Virus genome (UHGV): UHGV-1430452
Length of the DNA stretch: 64,000 nucleotides
Strand: one strand, 5' to 3'
DNA from: a virus
The notes under the pieces were generated by a model. The model saw only the letters and a list, made by a program, of their open reading frames with translations, was not told the origin of the DNA and did not search any database. Made by a program: the position numbers and the translations under genes. This document shows, one piece after another, positions 22,402 through 48,442 of this stretch. How positions within the stretch are numbered: the first letter of the stretch is position 1; each line of letters begins with the position of its first letter.

Positions 22402-22821
22402 TCAATCCCTAGCATTCGATAGCAGCCAAAAGAACCTTCTGTACCTGTCGTAATACATGTCTCTACCGCACGGAATATCTAACTTTGACCGCAGGTAAGT
22501 ATACGATAAACCCTCTGTAACCGCTTTTAAAATGTAATCGTACAAATAACGGTCTGCATCCAAAGCTATCCTCTCGATTAGATCGATTTTCTCTTTATAA
22601 TAAGCTCTCAAGATTGCTCTCTTACCTGTTGGATCACCAGGCATATTGCTCGTTGGGATTTTCTCGATCATGGATAACGGTACAGAATGATCGTTAAAAG
22701 CAGCATAAGCACTCTTCCATATCGGATACTGTAAACAAAAATGTTTTAGTTCGTAATATCGATGTTTGCTAATCCAGTATTTGTTGTTCTCAGACAGCTC
22801 TGGACGTATTCTTGTTGCCAT
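22402..22821 (-). CDS. hypothetical protein, possibly an early transcriptional regulator
   Basis: 139 aa; second gene of the leftward early operon; functional guess rests on position only. Confidence 0.35.
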   Translation of the reverse strand: MATRIRPELSENNKYWISKHRYYELKHFCLQYPIWKSAYAAFNDHSVPLSMIEKIPTSNMPGDPTGKRAILRAYYKEKIDLIERIALDADRYLYDYILKAVTEGLSYTYLRSKLDIPCGRDMYYDRYRRFFWLLSNARD

Positions 22822-22962
22822 TTTGATTTTTCTCCTTCAATTTATTCTTCCTGCATTTATCTGCTTTCTTCATAAATTTAACAGTGGCTTTTTCCAACTT
22901 CTCTCTATCAACTTCTCCATAAACATTAACGATAGCATTCTTATAACGGTATGTTTCCATCA

Positions 22963-23181
22963 CTATTTACTCCGTGATAAGAATATGTCCAATGCTTCTA
23001 GGTTAGTTAATCCAAGAACCTCTTTTAACTTAGCCGCTTCATTTACCGTAAATGCATCAAATCCATTTAGCTTACGATAAAAAGAAGATCTGTTGATGTC
23101 GATCAGATCAGCGGTCTTAGCCACGTTCAATCCCTTTTCGACTATCTTGCCTTTTAATTTATTCGCATTCATGCACATCAC
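22963..23181 (-). CDS. Cro-like helix-turn-helix regulator
   Basis: 72 aa; HTH-like GLNVAKTADLIDINRSSFYRKLNG; divergent from the repressor gene across a 216-bp switch region. Confidence 0.55.
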   Translation of the reverse strand: MMCMNANKLKGKIVEKGLNVAKTADLIDINRSSFYRKLNGFDAFTVNEAAKLKEVLGLTNLEALDIFLSRSK

Positions 23182-23397: not shown

Positions 23398-23994
23398 ATG
23401 ACAATAGGACAAAAAATAAAAGAATTACGCAATCAACTTAATATGTCGGTGGATGATCTTGCTGTGAAACTGGGTAAGAACCGTGCGACTATCTACCGCT
23501 ATGAACGAGGAGATATCGAGAACCTCCCTCTCGATGTACTAGAACCATTAGCAAATGCTCTTGAGACCACACCTGGTTATTTAATGGGATGGGAAGAAAC
23601 TACGAAAAAGAAAGAGCCTTCAATTATCGATGAAGTTACCATGGGTGACGTTTTTAAAGCGTTACGTCTAGGAAGTAATTTATCGATAGAGGAATTTTCG
23701 CATGAGATTGGATTATCTGCCCAAGACATAAGCAATTATGAAGCAGGAAAGACTCCTATACCTGTAAATATAATTAATCTTGTTGCTGATTTCTTTGGCA
23801 TATCAATAGCGGAAATAGTTAAGGCACACAAAAACAGCGAAAATAGAACGCCTTCTGGTTTCGAAATGAAAAAGGAACGATTTGAACGTTTTAAAGTTTG
23901 GAATAAAGAGTTTGGACGAATACATTTTACTGATGAAGAAATCAATAAAATAATGGAATATACAAGGTTCTTACTTAGCCAAAGAAGACAGTAA
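23398..23994 (+). CDS. XRE-family (cI-like) repressor with two HTH domains
   Basis: 198 aa; IKELRNQLNMSVDDLAVKLGKNRATIYRYERG and a second HTH EEFSHEIGLSAQDISNYEAGK; RBS AAAGGAG. Confidence 0.8.
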   Translation: MTIGQKIKELRNQLNMSVDDLAVKLGKNRATIYRYERGDIENLPLDVLEPLANALETTPGYLMGWEETTKKKEPSIIDEVTMGDVFKALRLGSNLSIEEFSHEIGLSAQDISNYEAGKTPIPVNIINLVADFFGISIAEIVKAHKNSENRTPSGFEMKKERFERFKVWNKEFGRIHFTDEEINKIMEYTRFLLSQRRQ

Positions 23995-24070: not shown

Positions 24071-25657
24071 GTGGAACCAATGACAACGTTTGATATGAAC
24101 AACGCTGTAGACAATGCGTTCGGTATGGACGTATATGCTATCTATCTTCGGAAAAGTCGAGCCGATGTAGAAGCAGAAAAACTTGGAGAAGGAGAAACAC
24201 TAGCAAGGCATAGAAAGATACTAACAGAACTTGCTGCTAGAAAAGGATTGTATATCGGTAAGATTTACGAGGAAATTGTATCTGGTGAAACAATCGAAGC
24301 TAGACCTGAAATACAAAAACTGATAGAAGATTGTTATAAAGGGAAATATAGAGGAATCCTAATAGTAGAAGTTACTCGTCTATCTCGTGGTAATCAAGGA
24401 GACGCTCAAAAAATACTCGACTGTCTCAAATATTCGAATAGAAACAATGGTGTATTAGTTATCACTCCTACTAAGACTTATGACGTTGCACACAGCCAAG
24501 AAGACGAAGAATATATGGAGTTTGAATTGTTTATGTCTCGTCGAGAATATAAGATGATTCAAAAGCGTATGGATCGTGGCCGTAAACAAGCAGTCGTAGA
24601 AGGAAACTTCATGGGTAGTTACCGTCCCTATGGATATGACATCTTAAAAACCAAGACCGGACGAACACTTATACCGAATGAAGATGAAGCTCCTATCGTG
24701 AAAATGATTTACGAATGGACAGTTAACGATAATTTATCTCCTTTCAAGATAGCTGAGCGTTTAACTAATATGGGTGTTCCTACTTATTATGGTGAGAAGG
24801 ATTGGTCTAAAGAAACAGTTAAAACCATTTTGACGAATCAGACATACATGGGTAAAGTTCGTTGGAATGATCGAATGACTGTTAAGACTATGGTCGACGG
24901 AGAACTTAAAGCTACACGACCTCGTTCAAATCATTCCGATCACTTCATGCTATATGATGGAAAACATATGAAACACGCACTCGTCGACGAAGAAACATTC
25001 AAAGCAGCCTCCTCTCGCTTTCATAACGATAGGACAAGATCAAATCTAAAACTTGTTAATCCTCTTGCAGGACTTCTATTTTGTAAGAAATGTGGTAAAT
25101 CTATGGGTTATCAATCATATAGACATAAGAAAAACGGACCAATGGATCGATACAATCATAGACAGTCTGCTAATGGATGCAAGGTTAAGTCAGCAGTTGC
25201 TGAGGATGTTATAAAAGCTGTTATACATGCTTTGAAACTTTATATAGAAGATTTCGAATTTAAGTTAGACAACACTCCAGATGTTGACGAAAATTCAATC
25301 AATACGCAGCTCGAAGCTTTACAAAAAGAAATACGAAAATCCGAACGAAAACTTGCTAAGCTATTCGATTCTTGGGAAGATGAGAAGATAACAGATAATG
25401 AATTTGTTCAAAGGAAAGCCGTCCATAATCAGAAGATAGAAAATATAAAGAGGCAAATGGAAGAACTCGAATATTCGATACCAGAAAGAGAAGAATATGA
25501 GGATAAAATAATATTGCTGTCTGAAGCACTTGTCGCTATCACAGACGAATCGCTTGACGCAGATATTAAGAACGAGTATCTTAAAAGAATCATTGATAGA
25601 ATAGAGTTTAGTAGAGAGAATAACTCAGAGTTTATACTAGATATAGACTTATGCTAA
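24071..25657 (+). CDS. Large serine recombinase (integrase)
   Basis: 528 aa; resolvase-like N-terminus with catalytic-Ser context YLRKSRADVE; C-terminal zinc-ribbon CKKCGKS and coiled-coil; true start may be the ATG at 24080. Confidence 0.88.
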   Translation: MEPMTTFDMNNAVDNAFGMDVYAIYLRKSRADVEAEKLGEGETLARHRKILTELAARKGLYIGKIYEEIVSGETIEARPEIQKLIEDCYKGKYRGILIVEVTRLSRGNQGDAQKILDCLKYSNRNNGVLVITPTKTYDVAHSQEDEEYMEFELFMSRREYKMIQKRMDRGRKQAVVEGNFMGSYRPYGYDILKTKTGRTLIPNEDEAPIVKMIYEWTVNDNLSPFKIAERLTNMGVPTYYGEKDWSKETVKTILTNQTYMGKVRWNDRMTVKTMVDGELKATRPRSNHSDHFMLYDGKHMKHALVDEETFKAASSRFHNDRTRSNLKLVNPLAGLLFCKKCGKSMGYQSYRHKKNGPMDRYNHRQSANGCKVKSAVAEDVIKAVIHALKLYIEDFEFKLDNTPDVDENSINTQLEALQKEIRKSERKLAKLFDSWEDEKITDNEFVQRKAVHNQKIENIKRQMEELEYSIPEREEYEDKIILLSEALVAITDESLDADIKNEYLKRIIDRIEFSRENNSEFILDIDLC

Positions 25658-25715
25658 ATGGTGGCTTTGCTGCCTGTAAGACCTGCACTAAAATGGTGTA
25701 GGTAACTTTTTCCCC

Positions 25716-25770
25716 GACATATATATCATGGTTGTGTTTCTTTTATATCGCCACCATGATATATATCACA
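25716..25770. repeat. Perfect 14-bp inverted repeat (ATATATATCATGGT) with 20-bp spacer downstream of the recombinase gene
   Basis: Arms at 25719..25732 and 25753..25766; candidate attP core or operator. Confidence 0.5.
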
Positions 25771-25813
25771 GGGAAACTATTCTAAACGTTGATATATCAA
25801 GGAGGAGATATAC

Positions 25814-26065
25814 ATGAGAATAGTATGGAAAGACAGTGCGCCTAAAACAAAACCTTGGTTGACGTTCAAATATAGAGAACATATCGTTAGCCAATATGGA
25901 GATGGATGGATTACCGATATACCTGGTGATAACAATATCTATTTTCCGAGAGAGTGTGCTTATAATGCAATCGATAAGTCTCTAGGTGGAAAGACACGAA
26001 AAGCTAATCCTCAAAGACATAAATTAGGAATAAAAGTTATTGGTAGAAAGGACGATGTATCATGA
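25814..26065 (+). CDS. Small hypothetical protein, tandem paralog A (MRIVWKDS...)
   Basis: 83 aa; RBS GGAGGAG; paralog of the next gene. Confidence 0.5.
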   Translation: MRIVWKDSAPKTKPWLTFKYREHIVSQYGDGWITDIPGDNNIYFPRECAYNAIDKSLGGKTRKANPQRHKLGIKVIGRKDDVS

Positions 26066-26313
26066 GAATCGTATGGAAAGATAGTCATAAGCCAAAAGAA
26101 TATGAACCTATGAAATATCGAAATATTTACATCTTCGGTACTCCTGAAGGATGGGAAGTAAATATAAAAGGAGATAATAATCTATACAAGACTCATTACT
26201 GTGCTATGAATGCGATTGATGATTACTTTGGAGATTTTGGAGAACGTGGTACAGAAAAACGTAAACGATATGGAATACAAATAATAGGTAAGAAAAATGA
26301 TGAGACTGCATGA
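26062..26313 (+). CDS. Small hypothetical protein, tandem paralog B (MRIVWKDS...)
   Basis: 83 aa; start overlaps stop of paralog A (ATGA); shared MRIVWKDS, GDNN.Y, NAID, G.RG.. K+.+ GI..IG+K.D. Confidence 0.5.
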   Translation: MRIVWKDSHKPKEYEPMKYRNIYIFGTPEGWEVNIKGDNNLYKTHYCAMNAIDDYFGDFGERGTEKRKRYGIQIIGKKNDETA

Positions 26314-26361
26314 ATCTCAAAAGCCACTTCCTTTTCTGGAGGTGGCATATTTTTATCTAGG

Positions 26362-26913
26362 TTAGACATTTCTATTTTCGTATGACGTAAATTTTACATT
26401 TGTGTACTCGTTAACCAAAAAGCTACATGCTTCATTAACTGTTTTAACGACGGATTCCCCTTCTATATAACTCTGATAATTCCTTCTTTGATTTTCAAAT
26501 TTAAGATCAGGTTCAACCATGGTATCTACACTTAACCATATTAGTTCCGTAGTATAGTCTTCGGTAAAATATCCTTTTATAAAAACCTCTTTCTTTCCAA
26601 CCGTTCCGATTAGTTTTATAAACGACATATCATGCTTCGTCAGATTAAACGCATATCTTATTCCTTTTACATATTGCCCGCCAAGTTTCCTCGACTTAAT
26701 TGTTTCATAGTAATTATCTTTATTGTTGTTCTTTTTATGCCACTCATCCGATATACAAATCCACATTAAAAGTTCGCTTAAAGTTGCAACCATGGATATG
26801 CTATTTTGTTTGTCGCTTGTGCTTAAATATTCATGAAATCTTTTATGAGATTCTCTTAATCCATGGTTTATATACATTAGCCTAAATTCTTCGACACTAT
26901 TCATTATCTGCAT
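26362..26913 (-). CDS. hypothetical protein (moron/accessory candidate)
   Basis: 183 aa; very AT-rich; convergent with the paralog pair; between the lysis and integration modules. Confidence 0.45.
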   Translation of the reverse strand: MQIMNSVEEFRLMYINHGLRESHKRFHEYLSTSDKQNSISMVATLSELLMWICISDEWHKKNNNKDNYYETIKSRKLGGQYVKGIRYAFNLTKHDMSFIKLIGTVGKKEVFIKGYFTEDYTTELIWLSVDTMVEPDLKFENQRRNYQSYIEGESVVKTVNEACSFLVNEYTNVKFTSYENRNV

Positions 26914-27009
26914 TCCTCCTTTTATCGTAATATTCGACCATATAGGAGAAATTTCCTTTTAACCATATGAAGAAAAATAAAAGGGGCTGTTTTATTCGCC
27001 CCAATTATT

Positions 27010-27318
27010 TTACATCTTGTGTGAAATCTCCTCGCAATGCTTTTCCAATGATTTGATTCGTTCTTCGTGACCCTGATTTTGAATTTTCAGCTCGTCTATT
27101 TCAGATCCATGATTCGTAACCCGAGTCTTCAAGTTATTAATCATCTCGGTCAAGAAGTTTATAGTCGCGTTGAGTTTGATTATGTTTTCGTTTAGCTTTT
27201 CGATAGGCTCATTTTTAGAATGTTCTTCCTGAGTAATATCCTTCCTCAGTTTCATATAGAAAGCGAACACTGAGCCTATGACTGTTAAGACAATGATTAT
27301 AACTTGATTCTCTGCCAT
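27010..27318 (-). CDS. Membrane-anchored coiled-coil protein (lysis-associated?)
   Basis: 102 aa; N-terminal helix IIIVLTVIGSVFAFY then coiled-coil; immediately after the holin. Confidence 0.45.
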   Translation of the reverse strand: MAENQVIIIVLTVIGSVFAFYMKLRKDITQEEHSKNEPIEKLNENIIKLNATINFLTEMINNLKTRVTNHGSEIDELKIQNQGHEERIKSLEKHCEEISHKM

Positions 27319-27320
27319 AG

Positions 27321-27614
27321 TTATTTTTCCTTCGCTGTATTATTATCGTCTTTCTTACCTTCTACAAATCTACTAAATCCCTGATGTAGACCTGTAGATG
27401 CCAGACCCATAACTGCACCATATACGATGGAATCGACAGAGATGCCGCTTACTGCCGTATTCAATGCTGCGCCGACAACAGCCAGGATGACTGGAATATC
27501 GTCGTTAGGGATACGTTTTAAAAAAGTCGCATGTTTGATGATATATCCAACCACCAGACAAGCGACCATTACTACAAGTACGAAATGTTCAGTTAAAATT
27601 TTTGCGAAATCCAT
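27321..27614 (-). CDS. Putative holin
   Basis: 97 aa; two hydrophobic helices and a charged C-terminus (KKDDNNTAKEK). Confidence 0.55.
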   Translation of the reverse strand: MDFAKILTEHFVLVVMVACLVVGYIIKHATFLKRIPNDDIPVILAVVGAALNTAVSGISVDSIVYGAVMGLASTGLHQGFSRFVEGKKDDNNTAKEK

Positions 27615-28290: not shown

Positions 28291-28626
28291 TTAAACATCA
28301 ACAGCCCCCGTATAGGAAGGCTGAGTTTTTAACCAATCGTATGCATTTTGAATTAGATCGCCTATAAGTAGTTTCTGAGCCTCATCCCATTCAATGCTAA
28401 GATAATCCATGTTGGTGTATGGAAAAGATGGCTCTCCTATGATTCTACCAGCCATATAATCCTTATCGTATTGACGACCTTCTTTATCAATGTACGATTC
28501 TACAATAATAGTAGCTCGCTGATTAATTTCTACGTTAATGGCGGCAATATGATGATAGCTTACTACTACACCATTAGCGGTTTTAATGTTTACTTCTATA
28601 GCCAAAATATCACTCCTAAACTCCAA
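28291..28626 (-). CDS. Small protein, paralog of 31069..31350; possible fibre assembly or accessory protein
   Basis: 111 aa; shared SYID and C-terminal LKT.P...GA.D with 31069..31350; each sits just after a fibre gene. Confidence 0.45.
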   Translation of the reverse strand: MEFRSDILAIEVNIKTANGVVVSYHHIAAINVEINQRATIIVESYIDKEGRQYDKDYMAGRIIGEPSFPYTNMDYLSIEWDEAQKLLIGDLIQNAYDWLKTQPSYTGAVDV

Positions 28627-31048
28627 TTACTTGTCTAAGAACAAACCTGTTATTGGTATAAGCAACTCCATTGTTTCCCTGTCCGGTATAGTTATTTTCA
28701 ACCCCACCGGTGAGTTTGCCATCAGATATGTTCAATACTTTAACACTCGCATATCCGCAAACTTCAGACATAAGCGTGAAACACCACGGTTTTCCTGAGT
28801 ATGTAGAAACAGCGCTTTTAGGCACGAAGAAGCTATGTAATCTTGTATTAGTAGCAGACCCATTATAATAGTCAGAGAATATCAATACGATTCCATGAGG
28901 TTGATTTGATACAGGGCTACTAAAAGTTATGGTATGAGTATTACTCGGCCATAAACTTCCGGTCCATAGTGTATTATTTGTAAACCTTTCGGTAACTGAA
29001 CCTCTTACAAAGCCATTATCAGCAGTAAACGTCATAGCAGTTCTGATACTGTGAGGGGAATATGAATCTGTTGGGGTCATGAGAAAATAATTTTCGCTAC
29101 TCCCATCAACTTTTCTAGCAAACATTTTTACTGTAGGACTGACTCCTCCTCTATCCCCTTTAACGCTAACATAAGAAGCCACACCATCGTGTGACTCAAA
29201 ATTTGCTAACATATCAGCAATATCTGCTCTTAATACCACGCGATACTCTCCATCATAGCGGCTAGTGTAAATTGTTTCAGTAGTTGAGGCAGCATTAGCT
29301 TCGTATGTAATGATTGGATCATCATCATCTTCGAAATAAACGAGAACATCGTCTGTAAATGCTTCATCGTTTTCGATGACTAAAGTACCTTTTACAGTAG
29401 ATATCTTACCTCTACCGTTATTCATGGATATTACTGTATTATCTGAATTTTTCCCGAGATCTATTAACGATTCACCAAAAGTAGCCAACTCAGTAATTCC
29501 GTTTCTCATTTCGATGTCTGTACTACTAATAAGAATATTTCTGCCAAGAGTTGATGTTCTCTTATCAGCAACCATAAGTCCATTAGCATCGAAACCGAGG
29601 AAGTTTGTAGCGGTTTTAGCAGCTTCTACAGCCTGACCATAAGGATCAATCCAGCTACTCCATGTTGAAGTTGAAGTTCCAACACGCCAATATTCTTTTC
29701 CAGTACCTTCGACTTTGGCTGTCTGTCTCGGATATCCTCCGCTAGTATCTTTGTACGGCATATCAGTTCGTAAATGACAGTAAGTCCCTACTCCAGACAA
29801 TCCTATAGTAGAACAATACTTGAATTCGGCAACTGATGTACTAGGATAATTATTTATGTAATATAGCGGCGGGTAATTCGAATTTTTGGTATCTTTTACG
29901 TCAAGTCCGTCGCCTTTTGGTCCTTGTGGTCCAGTAGGTCCTTGTGGTCCTGTTGCGCCTGTACTACCAGTTTCTCCTCGTGGTCCAGTAGGTCCTTGTG
30001 GTCCAGTGGCTCCTGTGGCTCCGGTGTTACCAGTAATACATACACCATTAGATGATGGAGTATATGATGTAGTGTTGTCTGTGTACGTTACCAGTGTTCT
30101 TCTCCAAATATACTTTCCATCAGCCCACGTAGGTTGACTCGTACTCCATGATCCACCTGTTAATGTTGTCGGGGAATTGGATGAATAGAACTGTTCTTGT
30201 GTACTTTTTATGGTAGAACCCAGTGTTACGCTCAATCCATTAGCAGTCTGTTCTAGAGTAGAGACCTCGCCTTCCAAATCTGTTACTTTCGAACTTAAAC
30301 CACTGGCAGTCTGTTCTACCGTACTAACCCTGTTTCCAAGAGAAGTAGTTTCCTGTACATTTGCTTCTATTCTGTCAGCATTTTGATCGATACTGGATTT
30401 AGCGTTTGTTAGATCTGTAGTGAGCTTCGATACATCCGAAGTTAAGCCATCAGCAGTCTGTTCAAGCGTGCTTGTCCTGACACCTAATTCATTTGTGGCG
30501 TTCACATTTGCTGTAATACGTTCTCTTTCTATGTTCAGATCAGCTTCGTACTCCGTTCTGAGGTCATTCACGGCTTCCCATGAACTATCACAAACTGGGC
30601 TTGTGTATGCATTTGACGTTGGGTTCTTATACGTAATGAGATATCTCGTCCATAAATACATACCAGTAGACCAGGTAGGCATGGAAGTTACCCATGACCC
30701 GCCTGTCTGTGTTGTTTTGGAAGTGCTTAAATAATATTGCTGAGTGATGCTATCAATGCCAGTACCAGTAGGACCCTGAGATCCTGTTGCCCCGTCGGTT
30801 CCATTCTTAGGTATGTAAGATACTGAATATGTTGTAGATGTATCACCCTCTGTATATGTAATGACGGTTCTGCTCCACAAATACTGTCCAGGTGATACAG
30901 AGGGGATTGTCGTACTCCATGTACCGTTTGGAGGATTTGTGCCTGACGTACCAGCCTGATAAGTTATGACTGTGGATGTAATTCCCTTGCCGTCTATTCC
31001 GTCTATAATGTCCGAGATAGTAACCTCGGCTTTAGCTATCACAGCCAA
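28616..31048 (-). CDS. Tail fibre protein with collagen-like G-x-y repeats and repeated coiled-coil segments
   Basis: 810 aa; GATGATGPQGPTGPRGETGSTGATGPQGPTGPQGPKGDG; repeated LEQTA.GL.S.V..L motifs. Confidence 0.7.
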   Translation of the reverse strand: MAVIAKAEVTISDIIDGIDGKGITSTVITYQAGTSGTNPPNGTWSTTIPSVSPGQYLWSRTVITYTEGDTSTTYSVSYIPKNGTDGATGSQGPTGTGIDSITQQYYLSTSKTTQTGGSWVTSMPTWSTGMYLWTRYLITYKNPTSNAYTSPVCDSSWEAVNDLRTEYEADLNIERERITANVNATNELGVRTSTLEQTADGLTSDVSKLTTDLTNAKSSIDQNADRIEANVQETTSLGNRVSTVEQTASGLSSKVTDLEGEVSTLEQTANGLSVTLGSTIKSTQEQFYSSNSPTTLTGGSWSTSQPTWADGKYIWRRTLVTYTDNTTSYTPSSNGVCITGNTGATGATGPQGPTGPRGETGSTGATGPQGPTGPQGPKGDGLDVKDTKNSNYPPLYYINNYPSTSVAEFKYCSTIGLSGVGTYCHLRTDMPYKDTSGGYPRQTAKVEGTGKEYWRVGTSTSTWSSWIDPYGQAVEAAKTATNFLGFDANGLMVADKRTSTLGRNILISSTDIEMRNGITELATFGESLIDLGKNSDNTVISMNNGRGKISTVKGTLVIENDEAFTDDVLVYFEDDDDPIITYEANAASTTETIYTSRYDGEYRVVLRADIADMLANFESHDGVASYVSVKGDRGGVSPTVKMFARKVDGSSENYFLMTPTDSYSPHSIRTAMTFTADNGFVRGSVTERFTNNTLWTGSLWPSNTHTITFSSPVSNQPHGIVLIFSDYYNGSATNTRLHSFFVPKSAVSTYSGKPWCFTLMSEVCGYASVKVLNISDGKLTGGVENNYTGQGNNGVAYTNNRFVLRQVIGV

Positions 31049-40894: not shown

Positions 40895-43800
40895 TTATAT
40901 CCTCCTTTCTATCACGGCTGCTCTTACAATTTCTTTAACAGCTTCTGTAATATTGCTTCCATCATCATAAGTAAGACCGTTAATGTTATATGAAACACCA
41001 CCAACATTACCTAAGTCTTTACGAAGTCTGTTTATTGCTGAAACAACATCATCCATAGATCCATTTTGAATTCTTTCACCCATCATAGAATTTATGGTGT
41101 TTAGTCTTGACATTACTCCCAATGTAGGAGTTCCATTCAACATGCCGTTAATTGCACTAGCTCCAGATTTAATATCAGACAAATCAAGGACTGGTCTTAT
41201 TGTCGGCTGAGTGTTGATATCTCCGTCAAGAAGACTCGAAATTCTCGACATTGCTGTTTGAGTACTGTTAACAGCGTTATCGGACATTCTAGAAATAGAT
41301 TGTTTCACTAATCCTCCGAACATACCGATACCCTTAGCAAATCCAATAGGAACATATGAACCTATTTTCATGAACACCCTTGAAGGTGAATGAATAGCAA
41401 GATTAGCCCTAGCTGCTGCCGATGCTGCCGCTGCCATTGAAGCTGCTGCATTTGCCGCCGACCAAATGTTCGCTTGAATACCTGCTACAAATCCGCTAGC
41501 TACATAAGATCCAGAACTATAAAAGCTTGAATAATATCCTCTAGTAGAAGATACTGCTGAAGACAATATCGACGTTGTTGTGTTCACAACACTTGAAGCT
41601 CTACTTCGCATACCGTTTACGAATTGTGTCATTAAAGCAACGCCATTAGTTCCAAATACGGATCTTTTACTGCTAATAGCTTTAAGCATCGAGTTGATAA
41701 TATTGGTAGCTGTTGATGTTACCAATGCTTGTTTTGATTTCAAACCATTAGAGAAAGATGTAATTAAGTTCGATCCAATGTTCGACATCTTAGACGTTGA
41801 ACCACTAAATGATTTAGTAATACTATTCATAGAAGTTTGACCCAAAGTAGATACAGCAGTTTTAAACGATGCTACGCCGCTTGTGTTAAGTCCGGCCAAA
41901 CTACTAATAAAATTCTTAATCTTAGTAGCCGCTGTTATAGAGCTAGATATTGATCCGACATTTATACCTGCAACAGAATCAGAGTAACTTTTTAAAGTAC
42001 TTCCGATAGTTCCTATCTTAAAGTTTGAAACTCCACTAGAATCCAAACTTGATAGTCCCTGAATAAAAGTCTTTAATCTATTTGCCGCAGTAACAGAAGA
42101 TGTAACTTTACCAGAGTCCACATTTTCAACCGACTTAGAGTAGCTCTTCAAAGTAGTTCCAATAGATCCTATTTTGAAGTTACTAACACCACTACTATCC
42201 AATCCCGTAAGACTTGATACAAAATTTCTAAGTCTATTTGCTGATGATATGGATGATGAGACTATACCCGGGTCCATATCTTTAACGGAGTTTCCGTAGT
42301 CCTGCATAGCCTTACCTATGGAATTAATCTTGAAGTTTTCAATACCGCTTGTATCAAGACCCACCAGACTAGCTATTAAACTCTTAAGTCTTAAAGCTAC
42401 TGAGACTGCTGTGTTTACTTTAGCGATATCGATATCGGCTACAGATTCTCCGAACTTACCTATAGCCTGTCCAATATTAACCAAATGACCGTCTCCGGCT
42501 CCAACACCTGCAAAGCTACTAACACCACTTGCATCGAGATCGGCTAAAGCGGTAATCAGGTTTTTAATCCTATAAGCGGCTGTTATGGCGGTGTTTATAC
42601 CATCAGAGTTTATGTTTGCAGCGTCTGTTGAGAATGTAGTCATGGCCGAGCTGAATTTTTCGACGTATTTTGAGAATTCCTCAAGATTCATCTTACCGTC
42701 AAACCAGCCTTCTTCTGGAAGGGCTTCTTGAAGAGCTATAATAGCGCTACCTGCATTCGTTACGGATGTTACGACTGCTTCCGATATACCGTCCTCTCCC
42801 ATTCCGGTTTTAAGTTTGCCCATAGCTGTAGCAAATTGACCTATGTTTTCGCCAAAAGTTCCTAAGTCATCTTTTCCGGTAAACCAGTCGATTACTCCTC
42901 CCATATTCTCAAGAGAAGATTGTAATCCAGCAAGTTTAGTAGCCGCATTTATAATAGAAGTAATTGAATCATCATCTATTTTTGTATCTCCTAAATCGGC
43001 AAAAGCAGTTTTCATCGATCCCATAAAGCTAGCGACACTAGACCCAAAAGTCCCTAAGTCGTCCCTTCCAGTGAACCAGTCAACCACTCCTCCTATATTT
43101 TCAAGCGATGACTGCAAGCCTGATAATTTAGTAGCTGCGTCGATGATTATGCCGATTGCTTCGGTATTTATTTTGACTCCGTCTAAGCTTGAAAATGCTT
43201 TTGTCATAGATCCTATAAATAGACCTATATTTACACCAAATGTGCCGAGGTCGTCTCTACCTTTAAACCAGCTTATTACTCCACCTATTGGTTCGAGTGC
43301 TGACTGCAATCCTGCTAATTTAGTTGATCCATCGATAATGGTAGTCAAAGCTTCAGAATTAAATTCAACACCATCAAGACTCTGAAAAGCAGTTTTCATA
43401 GAGAATATAAATTGAGCTACGTTTGTTCCAAAAGTTCCAAGATCATCTCTACCTTTAAACCAACTTATTACTCCGCCTATAGGTTCCAATGACGATTGTA
43501 AATTAGCTAGAATAGTAGTAGCACTTATTATTGCGGTTAATCCTTCTGTGTTTAAAGTAATTCCTTCTAGATCAGAGAACGCAACTTTCATGGAAGATAT
43601 GAATTCTCCTACACTTTCTCCAAATGTGCCGAGGTCGTCTCTACCTTTAAACCAGCTTATTACTCCGCCTATTGGTTCAAGGCTAGATTGAAGTTTACTC
43701 AGTTCAGCAGCTCCAGTAATGATCGATGTTAAAGCTTCCGTATTGAAGGATACTCCGTCAAGACCTAGAAAAGCATTCTTCATTGAGAATATAAATTGAC

Positions 43801-46800
43801 CGACGTTAGTTCCGAAAGTCGCGAGGTCATCCCTGCCAGAGAACCAATCCATAACACCGCCTATAGGCTCCAATGACGATTGTAATTCGCTAAGTTTCGT
43901 TGCTACATTTATCACAGCGCCCATTGCCGCCTCGTCTATTGTGATTCCAGCAGAAGCTTGCGATATCGCTTTCATAGCATTGAAGAACGCAACACCATCG
44001 GTCTCAAACTTCTCCATAGAAGTACCACCGAGAGTGAATATGTCAGCGATAGAAGTACCAACTGTTGTAAATCCTATCTCTGCCATAGCACTCATTAAAT
44101 CGGACACGCCATCGAAAGATCCTGATTTAATACCACTAGCATTTTCGCTTGCTATAGCTAGTTTGTCCATGAAATCAGCAATATTTTGACCTATTTCCGG
44201 TAAACTTCCGGTAATACCTTCTCCGATTCCTCCTATGAATGCTCCGATTCCTTTGCCGATTGCGTTTCCTATTTTTCCTAATAATCCACCGCCAGCTTCA
44301 ACAAGGGACGAAAAACCTGGAATTTTAGATAACCCACCGATTGCTGCCAGAAGTACTGCTATCTCAGCTATTACAGCACCAACGGCTAATACTCCGGTCA
44401 TTGCTGGGCCGGCTAAAGCTCCAGCTCCGGCGAATACTTTCATCAATATTCCGATTACTCCGAATGCACCTATGCCTTTTAGCATAGTATCCATATCTAA
44501 ATTGCCTATCGAATCGACGATACCTTTGACAACTTGTCCGACAAAATTCATTATTGCCGATATTAATTCTGGAGTATGCTCGGCAAGACTATTAATAACT
44601 CCGATTATAAAACCGAGAAGTGAATCGACAATCTGTGGTGCATACTGTTCTAATGCGTCTAAAACGCCTAAGAGCAGTTTCAGAAAACTTTCAGCCAATT
44701 GAGGTGCATATTCTCCTATAACTTTTGCGATTTCGACGATACCTCGACCTATTACTTCAGCAATTTGTGGAATCAATCCTAAAATACCGGTGATTATAAC
44801 TGTTATTGATGCGACAAGCGCTGTGGCACCAGCAGTTCCAGCAGTAGCAAGAGCTGTGAATCCAGCTGATAGAGCAAGTATACCAACGCCAATTCCAGCT
44901 ATAGCTACAGCAAATATAGCCATCGCAGCGGATAAACCAAGTATTGCCGGAGTGAGTGGACTCAGAAGAGCTCCAGCTACTCCTATTACTACAAAGGCTC
45001 CAGCAAGAGTTACGAGACCTTTTACTATGCTCTCCCAACTCATAGATCCTAATGATTTCAATACAGGTGTTAAAATTGCTAATCCAGCAGCTGCAACAAC
45101 TAATGCGGCAGACCCCTTAAGAGATCCACTCATGGCTTTTAATCCAATAGATAGCTCGACCAAAGCTATTCCAAGTACAACGAGTCCTTTTCCTATACTC
45201 TCCCAGCTCATCGATCCTAATGATTTTAAGACTGGAGTTAATATAGCAAGTGCTGACGCCATCAAAAGCATTTGACCGCCGAACTTAGCGATAGATCCAC
45301 TACCCTTGCTCATAATTTTAGAAGCTAACACCAGCATTGTAACAATACCTAATATTCCAGCTCCACCTTTAGCTAATTCGTTCCAACTCATAGAACCCAA
45401 ACTCTTACCAACAGCAGCCAAAATGCCAACCGCAGCTGACATGATAAGCATCTGTCCAGCAAATTTGGTTATAGACTTACTTTCAGTATTCATGAGTTTG
45501 GCAGCACCAACTAATATAGCGACTATTCCTAATATTCCGGCCCCACCTTTGGCTAATTCTTCCCAACTCATTGAACTGAGAATTTTAGCGACTCCAGATA
45601 ACGCTGCTATTGCTGCTGATAATATAAGCATCTGTCCAGCAAATTTGGTTATAGACTTACTTTCGGTATTCATAAGTTTAGCAGCCGCGACGAGTATAGC
45701 TACCATTCCACCAATACCAACGAGGCCTTTTGCTACACCGTTCCAATCAAGTCCAGCTATAATTTTCATAGCGCCTGCTAATATAAGAATAGCTGCTCCG
45801 AGTCCAATCATCTGAACAGTTCTAGCTATACCTGACAAACTTGATACTATACCAGATAAAGGTTTGACACTTTTGCTGTTTATTTTTTCAAGCACTGCTA
45901 ATGCAGATATCAACTCTACAAACAAACCGCCTATTGCGCCTAAAGAACTTCCGAGTTTATCCTCGTCTATTCCAGATATGACAAAAAGAGCCGCTGCCAG
46001 TATTCCAATAGCACCCGCTATTTTTAGCAATGTTCCGGCTTTAAGATTCTGTTGCCATGATTCCAAACTTCCCTTAACGCCATCAAGTATTTTTTTAACG
46101 TTATCTAAGAAACTTATTTTTTCGAATGGATCAGATAATCCTTTAATAAAGTTTCTTATGGCTAGTAATATTCCAGCAAACAATCCGCTGTTTAATACTT
46201 CGAAAATATCGCCTTTACCAAAGGCATCGGCTATCATATTACCTATATCGGAAAAAGCTTCTCCGATGGCCGCGCCAACCGACTTTATAGTGTTCCATAG
46301 ACCGGAAAAGAAGCCAAGAAAACCTTGAAGTGTAGGAGAAATCTTAAAACTCTCAATAAGTGAGCGTCCAAACTCTGCTATTTTTGAAATCCCGTTGCTA
46401 AGAAATCCAACAATTTTATCAACTGCGTCGCCAAACAGATTTCCTTCTACTATGGAGTCTCTCACATTCGAGATAAAATCTCCAAAAGAACTCGTTGCAT
46501 CCAGTATTCCTCCACCAAGTCCGGTGAAGTTTCCAATAATATCTAGAGCGCCTTTTCCAACAGCTTTAAAAGCCTCTATAACAATATCGATAGCGGAAAA
46601 GATTCCTTTAAATGTAGATTTTATTTTAGATGCAGCGCCTTCACTTACTTTTAAAGTATCAGTGAAAGCTTTGAATCTATCAATCATACTTACTACTTGG
46701 TCGACTGTAGTAGGTGGAAATATCTCTCTAAAAGCTTCTTTTATCGGTTTTATTATATCTCCAAGGAATTTGAATATATTTTTCAAACCCTCTATAATTT

Positions 46801-48442
46801 TTTCTCTACCGCCAAGCTCGGTTATTCCATCGATAAGACCATCTATGTTGTCTTTTAATTTATTCGTAGATTCGTTTGCTTCATTTAGCGCTTTTAATGT
46901 AGCGTCATCAACGATACCTGTTATTTCTAAATCGTTAGCTTCCTGAAAAGCTTTAATAGCTGACTCTGTGGCACTTCCGAAAATTCCATCAGCACCAGAA
47001 TCGCCAATATCATAGTTAAGGCTTTGTAATGCTTTTTGTACTTTTGTTACGTCGTCTCCTGTATTACCTTTCGATAAACCGGCTTCGACTCCACTTAAAT
47101 CTACAAGTTCGCCTTTTAATCCGCTAACAGCTTCTTTTAAAATATCAGAAGATATGGCACCAGATTGAAAAGCTTTTTCTAGAGAACCATATTTTTTTAT
47201 GATCTCGTCCATATTAACGCCATGGTCCTCAGCAATCGATCTAACTTTTTCCTCAAAAGTATCGGTTTCTACACCAGCTTCATTTATTTTTTTTACAAGC
47301 TTATCCCAGTTAGAAGACATCGCGCCTTCCAATAATTCGTTACGAGATTTCGCTGATGATTCAACCATCTTTCCAATGGTATCTGAAATTCCAGTGAACA
47401 ATTCTTTGGAGTCTTCAAAATCACCGACAAGTATTCTCCAAGTTTGACCCCATCCAGATTGGAGAGATTCTTTTACCGTATCTATCAGCTGTGTGAATGT
47501 TTTTACTTTTGTAGCAGCGTCTTCAGCGTCCTTCGCTAAAGCCATAATATCGTTTGCTTGAGATTCGCTATAACCTTGGGCAATAAGATCGGCCTTACTA
47601 TATGCGCCAGACAATTGGTTAAGAGTTTCAGTTAATACCTCGGTCGTTAACCATTCACCTTTTGTTAGGCTTTCTCTAAAGCTGCCATATGTATCAATAG
47701 CTTGTTTAGCGCCTGTTCCCAAAAGTTCAGACGTTCTAACAAGTGCGTCCTGAAATACCTTACCACCCATACCGGCATTAACAACTGAGTTCCAGTCCAT
47801 AAGACTAACTTTACCTGCCGCCAATGCCTGAGAAAGCTGATACATCGCAGTAGATGCCTGTTGAGAAGTTGATCCAGAAACTGCGGCCAAGTTCGCAATA
47901 CCTTTAATAGCATTAACTGAGGTATCAAGTTTTACACCAGCTGCTGTAAACGTACCGATATTACGAGTCATTTCCGTAAAATTGTAAATCGTCTTATCGG
48001 CATATGTATTTAGCTCATCTAAAGCCTTATTTACAATATCAACATTAGTGCCTTCCTGCCTTGTATTGGATAGAATTGTCTGAATAGCACCAATCTGAGT
48101 TTCGTATTCTTGGAAACCGCTTTTAACCGGATCTATAGTTAATGCTGATATCATACGTTTACCAGTGTTAACAGCCTGGTTAGTGATGTTTGCTAAAGCA
48201 GTTACACCAGCGACCTGTAGTGCTGAAAATTTAGCCTGAACTGTCTCTATACCACTGCTCATTCCTGCAAAGCTAACACCTTTAGCAGCCTTACCGACAT
48301 TCTCCAACCCTTTGGAGGCACCAGATAGATTTAACTTTTGTTTGAGCTTATCGAGAGTTGACATACTGGTTGCGACTCCGCTCTCAAACTGCTTATTGTC
48401 GAACCGCATCTCCAAGACTCTGTTGTCAATAGTCGTACTCAT
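40895..48442 (-). CDS. Tail tape measure protein (2515 aa) with peptidoglycan-binding domain, hydrophobic segments and two internal repeat arrays
   Basis: TMP-like N-terminus; PG_binding_1-like GNTGDDVTKVQKALQSLNYDIGDSGADGIFGSATESAIKAFQ; repeated LQSSLEPIGGVISWFKGRDDLGTFG and SGVSNFKIGSIG units. Confidence 0.9.
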   Translation of the reverse strand: MSTTIDNRVLEMRFDNKQFESGVATSMSTLDKLKQKLNLSGASKGLENVGKAAKGVSFAGMSSGIETVQAKFSALQVAGVTALANITNQAVNTGKRMISALTIDPVKSGFQEYETQIGAIQTILSNTRQEGTNVDIVNKALDELNTYADKTIYNFTEMTRNIGTFTAAGVKLDTSVNAIKGIANLAAVSGSTSQQASTAMYQLSQALAAGKVSLMDWNSVVNAGMGGKVFQDALVRTSELLGTGAKQAIDTYGSFRESLTKGEWLTTEVLTETLNQLSGAYSKADLIAQGYSESQANDIMALAKDAEDAATKVKTFTQLIDTVKESLQSGWGQTWRILVGDFEDSKELFTGISDTIGKMVESSAKSRNELLEGAMSSNWDKLVKKINEAGVETDTFEEKVRSIAEDHGVNMDEIIKKYGSLEKAFQSGAISSDILKEAVSGLKGELVDLSGVEAGLSKGNTGDDVTKVQKALQSLNYDIGDSGADGIFGSATESAIKAFQEANDLEITGIVDDATLKALNEANESTNKLKDNIDGLIDGITELGGREKIIEGLKNIFKFLGDIIKPIKEAFREIFPPTTVDQVVSMIDRFKAFTDTLKVSEGAASKIKSTFKGIFSAIDIVIEAFKAVGKGALDIIGNFTGLGGGILDATSSFGDFISNVRDSIVEGNLFGDAVDKIVGFLSNGISKIAEFGRSLIESFKISPTLQGFLGFFSGLWNTIKSVGAAIGEAFSDIGNMIADAFGKGDIFEVLNSGLFAGILLAIRNFIKGLSDPFEKISFLDNVKKILDGVKGSLESWQQNLKAGTLLKIAGAIGILAAALFVISGIDEDKLGSSLGAIGGLFVELISALAVLEKINSKSVKPLSGIVSSLSGIARTVQMIGLGAAILILAGAMKIIAGLDWNGVAKGLVGIGGMVAILVAAAKLMNTESKSITKFAGQMLILSAAIAALSGVAKILSSMSWEELAKGGAGILGIVAILVGAAKLMNTESKSITKFAGQMLIMSAAVGILAAVGKSLGSMSWNELAKGGAGILGIVTMLVLASKIMSKGSGSIAKFGGQMLLMASALAILTPVLKSLGSMSWESIGKGLVVLGIALVELSIGLKAMSGSLKGSAALVVAAAGLAILTPVLKSLGSMSWESIVKGLVTLAGAFVVIGVAGALLSPLTPAILGLSAAMAIFAVAIAGIGVGILALSAGFTALATAGTAGATALVASITVIITGILGLIPQIAEVIGRGIVEIAKVIGEYAPQLAESFLKLLLGVLDALEQYAPQIVDSLLGFIIGVINSLAEHTPELISAIMNFVGQVVKGIVDSIGNLDMDTMLKGIGAFGVIGILMKVFAGAGALAGPAMTGVLAVGAVIAEIAVLLAAIGGLSKIPGFSSLVEAGGGLLGKIGNAIGKGIGAFIGGIGEGITGSLPEIGQNIADFMDKLAIASENASGIKSGSFDGVSDLMSAMAEIGFTTVGTSIADIFTLGGTSMEKFETDGVAFFNAMKAISQASAGITIDEAAMGAVINVATKLSELQSSLEPIGGVMDWFSGRDDLATFGTNVGQFIFSMKNAFLGLDGVSFNTEALTSIITGAAELSKLQSSLEPIGGVISWFKGRDDLGTFGESVGEFISSMKVAFSDLEGITLNTEGLTAIISATTILANLQSSLEPIGGVISWFKGRDDLGTFGTNVAQFIFSMKTAFQSLDGVEFNSEALTTIIDGSTKLAGLQSALEPIGGVISWFKGRDDLGTFGVNIGLFIGSMTKAFSSLDGVKINTEAIGIIIDAATKLSGLQSSLENIGGVVDWFTGRDDLGTFGSSVASFMGSMKTAFADLGDTKIDDDSITSIINAATKLAGLQSSLENMGGVIDWFTGKDDLGTFGENIGQFATAMGKLKTGMGEDGISEAVVTSVTNAGSAIIALQEALPEEGWFDGKMNLEEFSKYVEKFSSAMTTFSTDAANINSDGINTAITAAYRIKNLITALADLDASGVSSFAGVGAGDGHLVNIGQAIGKFGESVADIDIAKVNTAVSVALRLKSLIASLVGLDTSGIENFKINSIGKAMQDYGNSVKDMDPGIVSSSISSANRLRNFVSSLTGLDSSGVSNFKIGSIGTTLKSYSKSVENVDSGKVTSSVTAANRLKTFIQGLSSLDSSGVSNFKIGTIGSTLKSYSDSVAGINVGSISSSITAATKIKNFISSLAGLNTSGVASFKTAVSTLGQTSMNSITKSFSGSTSKMSNIGSNLITSFSNGLKSKQALVTSTATNIINSMLKAISSKRSVFGTNGVALMTQFVNGMRSRASSVVNTTTSILSSAVSSTRGYYSSFYSSGSYVASGFVAGIQANIWSAANAAASMAAAASAAARANLAIHSPSRVFMKIGSYVPIGFAKGIGMFGGLVKQSISRMSDNAVNSTQTAMSRISSLLDGDINTQPTIRPVLDLSDIKSGASAINGMLNGTPTLGVMSRLNTINSMMGERIQNGSMDDVVSAINRLRKDLGNVGGVSYNINGLTYDDGSNITEAVKEIVRAAVIERRI
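42800..43950. repeat. Tandem in-frame repeats of about 190 bp inside the tape measure gene
   Basis: Near-identical DNA blocks, e.g. around 43241 and 43610 (CCAAATGTGCCGAGGTCGTCTCTACCTTTAAACCAGCTTATTACTCC); boundaries approximate. Confidence 0.6.

What the first reader, a model, noticed from the sequence alone, without database searches (positions are those of the whole stretch)
25814..26313. Translationally coupled pair of 83-aa paralogs next to the integrase, on the opposite strand from nearly all other genes
Two tandem genes both start MRIVWKDS and share GDNN.Y, NAID and a basic C-terminal I(G/I)(R/K)K(D/N)D motif. They overlap by ATGA, have a strong RBS, and lie between the candidate attP palindrome and a convergent AT-rich gene. 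The position is typical of lysogenic-conversion or defence/anti-defence cargo; function unknown.
Basis: seen in the sequence. Interest (0 to 1): 0.5.

Follow-up and report, generated by a model that had tools for sequence, protein, structure and literature searches.

The report
Orphan small-protein pair welded to serine-integrase attP
Two paralogous 83-residue proteins of a previously undescribed gut-phage family always sit directly after the phage attachment site of one clade of large serine integrases, which suggests, without proving, that they are integrase cofactors rather than ordinary prophage cargo.

Summary
Genes 25814..26065 and 26062..26313 are 83-aa paralogs (42% identity, E 7e-21) that overlap by ATGA. 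They lie between two hairpin terminators, directly after a 54-bp palindrome.

Four attP/attL comparisons in related phages show that this palindrome type is the integrase's attP. In prophages the gene is the first one inside attL.

The proteins belong to an orphan family of about 100 clusters at 50% identity, mostly from gut metagenomes. Nothing matched in Pfam, PHROGs, NCBIfam, PADLOC or PDB sequences, and no fold match reached significance.

In 47 loci seeded with the integrase, 42 carry the gene right after attP. Four carry a 20-31-codon mini-ORF with the same N-terminus, and one is an attR junction. The DNA beyond the gene falls into 21 unrelated contexts.

The N-terminal MR[IV][VI]WKDS is held by amino-acid-level selection (all six Arg codons are used), yet it is disordered in the monomer models.

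My best reading, at 0.38, is an integrase-coupled cofactor resembling a recombination directionality factor that docks through this peptide. The main rival, at 0.30, is a lysogeny-module accessory gene. The function is unproven.

The parts
23398..23994 (+). CI-like repressor with two HTH domains; first gene of the + strand lysogeny operon
   Evidence: Pfam HTH_3 4e-24; PHROG 8 transcriptional regulator 6e-33
24071..25657 (+). Large serine integrase (Resolvase + Recombinase + Zn_ribbon_recom); closest solved relative is SPbeta SprA
   Evidence: Pfam; PHROG 95 integrase 1e-91; PDB 9dxh SprA E 1.7e-47
25681..25711 (+). Hairpin plus T-run after the int stop codon: a likely intrinsic terminator of the CI-int operon
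   Evidence: Terminator scan. RNA fold -13.2 kcal/mol, z -3.5. Relatives keep the hairpin through differing stem sequences, judged by eye and not counted.
25716..25769 (.). attP: imperfect inverted repeat (arms 25716-25732 and 25753-25769, 20-bp spacer, centre about 25742/25743 in CTTTTATA)
   Evidence: Sequence. Homologous palindromes in relatives are the crossover sites in attP versus attL/attR comparisons: L004 vs L003, L018 vs L019, L063 vs L001/L117, and L020/L105. The P' arm is almost identical to that of attL in L021. The window phage itself was not found in integrated form.
25789..25800 (.). Perfect 12-bp palindrome TTGATATATCAA between attP and the RBS; resembles the attP arm motif; role unknown
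   Evidence: The only exact copy in the window. Also present at the same place in L033 and L039, and in altered form in L009, but absent in most relatives.
25800..25805 (+). Shine-Dalgarno AGGAGG of gene A
   Evidence: Sequence
25814..26065 (+). Gene A, 83 aa, pI 9.8; A-type paralog (…LGGKTRKANP.RH…)
   Evidence: AF2 model pLDDT 78.8: four strands, two helices, one strand; residues 1-16 disordered.
26062..26313 (+). Gene B, 83 aa, pI 8.6; B-type paralog (…HYCA.NAID..G.FG..GTEKRKRYGIQIIG…); start overlaps the stop of A (ATGA)
   Evidence: AF2 model pLDDT 75.9 with the same topology; residues 1-16 disordered.
26323..26356 (.). Bidirectional hairpin terminator closing the A-B unit and the convergent gene
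   Evidence: Terminator scan. RNA fold -17.6 kcal/mol (z -5.4) on + and -12.8 kcal/mol (z -3.9) on -.
26362..26913 (-). Context only: convergent 183-aa ORF that lies inside a segment with no counterpart in the closest relatives (the variable cargo slot)
   Evidence: Homology with L007/L009 stops at the end of B and resumes about 1 kb further on. Only a weak PHROG 30856 hit; no PADLOC or NCBIfam hit.

Best explanation
A and B are two paralogous members of an undescribed small-protein family. That family is a fixed component of the integration module (CI - integrase - terminator - attP - small gene - terminator) of one clade of SprA-like large serine integrases in gut Clostridia/Lachnospiraceae phages.

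**Shown.**
- The gene is always the first ORF after the P' arm of attP, on the integrase strand. After integration it becomes the first gene inside attL, at the opposite prophage end from int.
- Its promoter has no room except within or over attP.
- Its N-terminal octapeptide MR[IV][VI]W[KQ]D[ST] is under amino-acid-level purifying selection and is not part of the folded core.

**Inferred.**
- The proteins act on the integrase or its att complexes. The most likely role is that of a recombination-directionality-type cofactor, favouring attL x attR and/or blocking attP x attB.
- The exposed N-terminal peptide docks on the integrase, for example by strand addition near the DBD2/coiled-coil base or the conserved C-terminal tail.
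- The small beta-alpha core and basic tail add affinity or DNA contacts.
- Because the promoter or 5' leader overlaps attP/attL, integrase occupancy and the recombination state could feed back on expression.
- The conserved A-then-B duplication suggests a heterodimer or division of labour.
For: **Reciprocal synteny.**
- Every phage-form locus seeded with the family has a homologous integrase (E <= 1e-195) directly upstream on the same strand.
- Of 47 integrase-seeded loci with at least 700 bp after int, 42 have the gene. Four have a mini-ORF with the same N-terminus. One is the attR end of a prophage whose attL end carries the pair.

**The module travels.** The 2 kb beyond the gene fall into 21 unrelated DNA clusters. 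Integration targets differ: an exoA-like gene, an MFS gene and a pilin locus. In the window clade the homology block ends exactly at the end of B.

**The slot differs in distant relatives.** More distant integrase phages (29-37% identity) have no such gene. They show convergent genes in that slot, including a RexA-like protein in Roseburia phage Jekyll.

**The N-terminal motif.** Across 58 distinct genes, Arg2 uses all six Arg codons (57/58 Arg), Asp7 is 58/58 and Trp5 is 56/58. Positions 9-10 are hypervariable. Residues 1-16 are unstructured in both AF2 models.

**Mini-ORFs.** They keep the RBS, the motif, a basic tail and a terminator.

**Transcription unit.** It is bracketed by terminators, and attP ends only about 20-45 bp before the ATG in most loci.

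**Precedent.**
- The closest solved integrase, SPbeta SprA, has its 58-aa RDF SprB at the opposite prophage end, so the two genes flank attP (PMC4191935).
- RDFs share no fold, and all bind the DBD2/coiled-coil junction.
- One predicted RDF adds a beta strand there (PMC12286644).
Against: - No interaction or activity test was possible, because complex modelling is barred by the tool rules.
- RDFs of serine integrases usually lack synteny with int and sit in damage-inducible early operons (PMC12286644, PMC4191935). Here the genes read inward from attL, and no element is shared with the CI/cro control region.
- No sigma-70-type promoter-like site was found between the int terminator and the ATG of gene A.
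- Family and integrase divergence are sometimes discordant: integrase 91% identical versus family 49%, with homology breaking at attP.
- Core-only homologues without the N-terminal motif sit among early genes of apparently lytic phages with no integrase nearby.
- Variants that have lost CI and int still keep the genes, although those deletions look recent.
- There is no similarity to SprB or any solved RDF.
- Many uncharacterised small early ORFs could be the real RDF.
Confidence: 0.38

Rival explanations
1. Lysogeny-module accessory cargo. The proteins are expressed from the prophage end, or early after infection, and act on the host or on competing phages (superinfection exclusion, anti-defence, host modulation). 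They have no role in recombination. Their linkage to int-attP would reflect co-inheritance of a lysogeny cassette.
For: - The position between attP and the lysis cassette is the classical moron slot.
- The unit has its own RBS and terminator and lies on the strand opposite the structural genes.
- The family diverges fast and is duplicated.
- Core-only homologues lie among early genes of apparently lytic phages.
- The genes are kept in int-deleted variants.
- Some relatives with longer spacers carry a -10-like TATTATA between attP and the gene, seen by eye. That would allow expression in the lysogen.
Against: - The gene is not patchy. It or its N-terminal mini-ORF is present in all 46 phage-form integrase-seeded loci, across 21 downstream contexts.
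- The truly variable segment starts after gene B.
- There are no hits to PADLOC or to any PHROG or Pfam family.
- Composition is not atypical.
- No signal peptide or membrane segment stands out in the sequences, unlike known lysogeny-module exclusion proteins. This rests on reading the sequences and on general knowledge, not on a prediction tool.
- The mini-ORFs keep only the N-terminal peptide, which is hard to reconcile with a globular effector.
Confidence: 0.3
2. Small nucleic-acid-binding regulators. A basic beta-sheet-plus-helix domain binds DNA near attP (for example the TTGATATATCAA palindrome or the attP arms) or binds RNA. It would control transcription of neighbouring genes or integrase expression, as an architectural or Cro-like factor.
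For: - pI is 9.8 and 8.6, with a basic C-terminal tail.
- The family motif YR..I...GW....IY...A.NAID..LG superficially resembles the YRG/RAYD elements of AP2, a resemblance I recalled from memory.
- A perfect 12-bp palindrome lies next to the RBS in the window and in some relatives.
- The phiRv1 RDF, as I recall it, binds DNA next to the att core; I did not check this in a paper.
Against: - hhalign of the family profile against the AtERF1 AP2 domain gives probability 0.2%.
- No Pfam AP2 or HTH hit in any of 93 members.
- All fold matches are below significance.
- The palindrome is absent from most relatives.
- This reading does not explain the invariant disordered N-terminal peptide.
Confidence: 0.15
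3. A toxin-antitoxin-like or otherwise selfish two-gene cassette, or non-functional ORFs.
For: Two small, overlapping, co-transcribed genes lie at a prophage end.
Against: - The two genes are paralogs of each other, and most relatives carry a single copy. That is not toxin-antitoxin architecture.
- No toxin-antitoxin family was hit.
- Strong purifying selection across more than 200 clusters excludes non-coding artefacts.
Confidence: 0.03

Closest known systems
SPbeta SprA/SprB (large serine integrase and its 58-aa RDF, Bacillus subtilis)
   Same: - The window integrase's closest solved relative is SprA (E 1.7e-47).
- In SPbeta the integrase and its small cofactor lie at opposite prophage ends, so they flank attP in the phage genome (PMC4191935).
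- SprA is expressed constitutively, and int here sits in the same operon as the repressor gene.
- The cofactor is small and has no known domain.
   Different: - No sequence or fold similarity. SprB binds through an N-terminal and an essential C-terminal helix, per 10.1101/2025.01.03.631226, whereas A and B have a beta-rich core plus a disordered N-terminal peptide.
- sprB is read outward toward attL, from a repressor-controlled early promoter and a sporulation promoter. A-B read inward from attL, with no room for a promoter outside attP.
- RDF activity is proven for SprB and untested here.
Other serine-integrase RDFs identified by virtual pulldown (PMC12286644; PMC11795197)
   Same: They are a functionally defined class without a common fold. 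They are small phage proteins that bind the DBD2/coiled-coil junction. One predicted RDF (Enc3) adds a beta strand, which is a plausible mode for the MRIVWKDS peptide.
   Different: Those RDFs generally show no synteny with int. The family here is strictly syntenic, is duplicated in some clades, and is reduced to a 20-31-residue mini-ORF in others.
Prophage-end morons / lysogeny-module exclusion genes (e.g. the RexA-like gene next to attP in Roseburia phage Jekyll)
   Same: They share the genomic slot between attP and the lysis genes, in a separate transcription unit.
   Different: Morons are patchy and replaceable. This gene is invariant within the integrase clade, lies on the integrase strand, and matches no defence or exclusion family.
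AP2/ERF-type three-strand-plus-helix DNA-binding domains
   Different: The profile comparison fails (probability 0.2%) and there is no Pfam hit. Not a member on present evidence.

Membership tests
Recombination directionality factor of a large serine integrase (functional class) | Binds its cognate integrase at the DBD2/coiled-coil junction | not testable with these tools
   Complex prediction needs a fused or paired input, which structure prediction does not accept (only window or found proteins). No experiment is available.
Recombination directionality factor of a large serine integrase (functional class) | Stimulates attL x attR and inhibits attP x attB recombination | not testable with these tools
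   Requires an in vivo inversion assay or an in vitro recombination assay.
Recombination directionality factor of a large serine integrase (functional class) | Encoded by the same element as the integrase and co-inherited with it | tested here: met
   Of 47 integrase-seeded loci, 42 carry the gene, 4 carry a mini-ORF and 1 is an attR junction. Every family-seeded phage-form locus has the integrase.
Recombination directionality factor of a large serine integrase (functional class) | Expressed on induction rather than during establishment or maintenance of lysogeny | tested here: inconclusive
   The unit is bracketed by terminators and the promoter must overlap attP. No sequence is shared with the CI/cro control region, and the scan found no promoter-like site upstream of gene A.
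SprB / known solved RDFs | Sequence or fold homology | tested here: not met
AP2/ERF-like DNA-binding domain | Profile match to the AP2 domain | tested here: not met
   hhalign against the AtERF1 domain gave probability 0.2%. No Pfam AP2 hit in 93 members at E <= 10.
AP2/ERF-like DNA-binding domain | Three-stranded sheet packed on a helix | tested here: inconclusive
Prophage moron / lysogenic-conversion cargo | Located at a prophage end next to att, in an autonomous transcription unit | tested here: met
   It is the first gene inside attL in L001, L002, L003, L019-L022, L066 and L071. It has a terminator on each side.
Prophage moron / lysogenic-conversion cargo | Patchy presence among otherwise related phages; replaceable cassette | tested here: not met
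   Present in every evaluable member of the integrase clade. The variable segment begins after gene B.
Known anti-phage defence systems (PADLOC) | Match to a defence-protein model | tested here: not met
   0 families at E <= 1 for A and B.
Type II toxin-antitoxin pair | Two unrelated small proteins (toxin and antitoxin) that always occur together | tested here: not met
   A and B are paralogs. Most loci have one copy. No toxin-antitoxin family was hit.

The most novel reading that the evidence does not exclude
The family is a new class of serine-integrase directionality cofactor, defined by an invariant N-terminal octapeptide that docks on the integrase. It is encoded immediately across attP, so that its promoter or leader overlaps the attachment site. 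Expression would then be wired to integrase occupancy and to whether the genome is integrated or circular. In some phages the cofactor would be reduced to a 20-31-residue peptide, and in others split into a heteromeric A/B pair.
Probability: 0.25. Interest if true: 0.75.

Novelty: new variant of a known kind. Interest (0 to 1): 0.5.

Why it matters
Large serine integrases are leading tools for inserting large DNA payloads. Reversing them requires the cognate directionality factor. That factor is hard to find, because such factors share no fold and are usually not syntenic with the integrase.

If this family is a cofactor, three things would follow:
- It would give dozens of ready-made integrase/att/cofactor sets from gut phages.
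- It would supply a synteny rule for finding them.
- It might define a minimal peptide that switches direction.

If it is not a cofactor, it is still an undescribed, strongly conserved component of the lysogeny module of abundant human-gut phages. Its invariant N-terminal motif points to a specific partner.

Tried and rejected
- **Family libraries.** Pfam, PHROGs, NCBIfam and PADLOC gave no hit for A, B or 93 relatives.
- **Solved structures by sequence.** The profile search of PDB sequences gave nothing.
- **Multi-repeat proteins.** The large repeat proteins hit by the profile (P0263, P0272, P0305, P0306) look like partial matches of a short strand-helix motif inside surface or tail-fibre repeats. 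I did not pursue them.
- **Shared operator.** I looked for a common operator between the CI/cro region and the region upstream of A. Only the terminator T-run is shared.
- **Promoter.** The consensus scan found no site upstream of A. Manual candidates overlap the P' arm and cannot be separated from integrase-binding constraints.
- **Integrated form of the window phage.** Exact-protein look-up and a metagenome scan with the P' arm returned only phage-form contigs.
- **GTDB species representatives.** Only one locus was found.
- **Integrase-family covariation.** Identities correlate (r 0.65). This is uninformative for linked genes, and there are discordant pairs.
- **Integrase-cofactor fusion modelling.** Abandoned, because structure prediction accepts only window or found proteins.
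- **Supplement of the virtual-pulldown paper.** It is not held as text, so I could not check whether any predicted RDF belongs to this family.

Full report
**1. The observation**

The window is most of a temperate phage genome. The exact proteins recur on contigs up to 96,655 bp from human-gut metagenomes. Nearly all long ORFs are on the - strand. The exception is a + strand block made of a CI-like double-HTH repressor (23398..23994), a large serine integrase (24071..25657) and the two genes in question.

Gene A (25814..26065) and gene B (26062..26313) each encode 83 residues and both start MRIVWKDS. They overlap by ATGA and are 42% identical (BLASTP E 7e-21). Gene A has AGGAGG 8 nt before its ATG.

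The unit is bracketed by two hairpins followed by T-runs:
- 25681-25711, after the int stop codon: -13.2 kcal/mol, z -3.5.
- 26323-26356, between B and the convergent 183-aa ORF: -17.6 kcal/mol on +, -12.8 kcal/mol on -.

**2. The palindrome is attP, and the gene is the first one inside attL**

Between the first terminator and gene A lies an imperfect inverted repeat. Its arms are 25716-25732 and 25753-25769 (15/17 complementary), separated by a 20-bp spacer centred on CTTTTATA.

Related phages carry the same architecture. For four of them both recombination states are on record:
- L004/L005 (int, palindrome, gene) versus L003/L006 (host MFS-gene fragment, right half of the palindrome, gene). 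Identity starts at TTTTATAG in the palindrome centre.
- L018 versus L019.
- L063 (attP) versus L001 (attL) and L117 (attR). The latter two are the GenBank scaffolds MT835495.1 and MT835485.1.
- L020 (attL) and L105 (attR) on a single 48-kb contig.

Further attL junctions lie in a host exoA/xth-like gene at the codons for GDLNVAH. These are L002, L021/L022, L030/L031, L066 and L071/L072. The P' arm of L021 is almost identical to that of the window.

I did not find the window phage itself in integrated form, so its own attP is inferred by homology. In every integrated case the family gene is the first gene inside attL. It reads inward and diverges from the host fragment. In most loci the P' arm ends only about 20-45 bp before the ATG, including the RBS. 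The promoter must therefore lie within or upstream of attP.

**3. The protein family**

Word-indexed searches with A and B returned 135 and 92 clusters. All are about 80-90 residues long and all are unnamed. An exhaustive profile search of 1.84 billion representatives found only 98 proteins. A scan of 185,579 species-representative genomes found one locus. One member is annotated in Frisingicoccus, a Lachnospiraceae genus.

Invariant positions are W5, R21, G31, W32, Y43, A49, N51, D54, G58 and G72.

No library recognises the family:
- Pfam, including all 93 aligned members individually: nothing.
- PHROGs, NCBIfam and PADLOC: nothing.
- PDB sequences: nothing.

AlphaFold2 gives the same topology for A (pLDDT 78.8) and B (75.9): four short strands, a 12-residue helix, a short helix and a final strand. 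Residues 1-16 are unstructured in both models.

The fold searches found nothing significant:
- Foldseek against BFVD gives nothing at E <= 0.001.
- Foldseek against PDB gives nothing at E <= 0.001.

Recurrent weak AP2/ERF hits and a YR…GW…NAID pattern suggested an AP2-like domain. hhalign gives probability 0.2%, so I do not file the family there.

**4. Linkage to the integrase**

In every family-seeded viral contig that is in the phage form, a close homologue of the window integrase (E <= 1e-195) lies directly upstream on the same strand.

I also seeded with the integrase, first alone and then as a 12-member alignment that reached down to 57% identity. Of 47 loci with at least 700 bp after int:
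- 42 have the family gene right after attP.
- 1 (L105) is an attR junction.
- 4 (L077, L098, L081, L082) carry, at the same place and with the same RBS and a downstream hairpin, a mini-ORF. The sequences are MRVVWKDSAQLANKQVKKEVKKVDKKNSKTA (31 aa) and MRIVWQDTNPKVKKPKNKTA (20 aa).

So all 46 phage-form loci have an ORF that begins with the octapeptide.

The 2 kb beyond the gene fall into 21 DNA clusters without detectable similarity. Between the window and its closest relatives, homology runs from int through attP, A and B. It stops exactly at the end of B, and the 183-aa convergent ORF lies in a variable insert.

Phages with more distant integrases (29-37% identity) lack any same-strand gene after attP and show convergent genes there. 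These are Dorea DO134P1, THSA-485A and Roseburia Jekyll. Jekyll has a RexA-like protein in that slot.

This pattern is that of a module component, not of patchy cargo.

**5. The N-terminal motif**

Across 58 distinct genes:
- Arg2 is encoded by all six Arg codons (57/58 Arg).
- Asp7 is 58/58, using both codons.
- Trp5 is 56/58.
- Ser8 is Ser or Thr in 57/58.
- Positions 9-10 are hypervariable.

Selection is therefore on the peptide, not on the DNA or RNA. Both tandem copies carry the motif, so proximity to attP does not explain it. It is outside the folded core in both models, and it is what the mini-ORFs retain. Distant homologues of the core alone, without the motif, sit in long arrays of small early genes of apparently lytic phages with no integrase nearby. 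I read the motif as a docking peptide for a partner specific to this module.

**6. The paralogs**

About 15 of the family-seeded loci have the tandem pair, always in the order A-type then B-type and always overlapping. Single-copy loci are mostly B-like. The duplication is old and is maintained in several clades (the window clade, L014/L016, and L017/L018/L020/L066). That suggests a heteromer or divided roles.

**7. What it most likely does**

The closest solved relative of the integrase is SPbeta SprA. Its 58-aa directionality factor SprB lies at the opposite prophage end from sprA, so the two genes flank attP (PMC4191935).

Directionality factors of serine integrases have no common fold, and all bind the DBD2/coiled-coil junction. 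One predicted factor adds a beta strand there (PMC12286644; 10.1101/2025.01.03.631226).

On this basis, and given sections 4-5, my best explanation is an integrase-coupled cofactor of the directionality type that docks through MRIVWKDS. Its expression would be coupled to attP/attL occupancy, because the promoter overlaps the site. I put this at 0.38.

Several points count against it:
- There is no interaction or activity test.
- RDFs normally sit in inducible early operons without synteny. The A-B unit reads inward from attL, and no operator is shared with the CI/cro region.
- Nearly identical integrases can accompany family proteins only 49-54% identical, with homology breaking at attP.
- Variants that lost CI and int keep the genes (L008, L015).
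- Many unknown small early ORFs remain as alternative RDF candidates.

Rivals:
- A lysogeny-module accessory function (exclusion, anti-defence, host modulation): 0.30.
- A small nucleic-acid-binding regulator: 0.15.
- A toxin-antitoxin pair or an artefact: 0.03. These are essentially excluded, because the genes are paralogs, are usually single-copy and are under strong selection.

**8. Novelty and verdict**

The family is undescribed and unannotated. Its strict placement across attP from one integrase clade, its invariant disordered N-terminal peptide and the mini-ORF derivatives are new observations.

The overall arrangement (serine integrase, attP, small cofactor-like gene) resembles SPbeta SprA/SprB but differs in protein, orientation and regulation. 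I therefore rate it a new variant of a known kind, with function unproven.

The cargo interpretation is only partly supported.

Interest is 0.5. It would rise sharply if the virtual pulldown or an inversion assay shows directionality control.

Noticed in passing
L014:2760-3233(-), L017:4567-5025(-) and likewise L018, L024, L027, L028, L035, L042; L105:4064-4903(-): Relatives that integrate into a host exoA/xth-like gene carry its C-terminal ~110 residues (Pfam Exo_endo_phos positions 141-225) between int and attP, on the opposite strand. The attR junction of an integrated prophage shows a full-length 279-aa ORF. The phage therefore appears to restore the gene it splits. The window phage (157-bp gap) has no such piece.
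   Followed up: partly
L008:3404-5000 vs L010; L015:4325-5168 vs window 22421-23052; protein P0278: Natural variants have lost the lysogeny module. L008 lacks CI and int, with the deletion endpoint exactly at the attP core. L015 lacks CI, int, attP and the 5' end of gene A (product P0079, named 'Herelleviridae sp.' in nr). P0278 fuses the integrase N-terminus to a family C-terminus.
   Followed up: partly
L001 (MT835495.1 32808-45041) and L117 (MT835485.1 49459-56967): Two GenBank 'Bacteriophage sp.' scaffolds are the attL and attR ends of integrated prophages of the L063 type. They include host DNA (SpaA-type pilin and sortase genes).
   Followed up: partly
window 25789-25800: A perfect 12-bp palindrome, TTGATATATCAA, sits between attP and the RBS of gene A. 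It is the only exact copy in the window, resembles the attP arm motif, and recurs at the same place in L033, L039 and (altered) L009 only.
   Followed up: partly
window 25714-25772: If transcribed, the attP palindrome would form a -20 kcal/mol RNA hairpin (z -5.7) in a leader of A-B. That hairpin would be lost in the attL configuration.
   Followed up: no
window 26362-27340: The 183-aa convergent ORF, and probably the neighbouring 102-aa coiled-coil ORF, lie in a segment with no counterpart in the closest relatives. This is the real variable cargo slot next to the holin (PF16079) gene. There is only a weak PHROG 30856 match and no defence hit.
   Followed up: partly
window 28616-31048 (-); window 40895-48442 (-): The 810-aa tail-fibre-like ORF contains collagen-like G-X-Y repeats. 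A 2515-aa ORF lies among the tail genes.
   Followed up: no
proteins P0263, P0272, P0289, P0297: Large multi-repeat surface proteins match part of the family profile 5-9 times. An example is the repeats YTVRYEWG…P.DD.TY….A.AAMDK in a 1024-aa LRR protein. This may be a shared strand-helix motif or a chance match.
   Followed up: no
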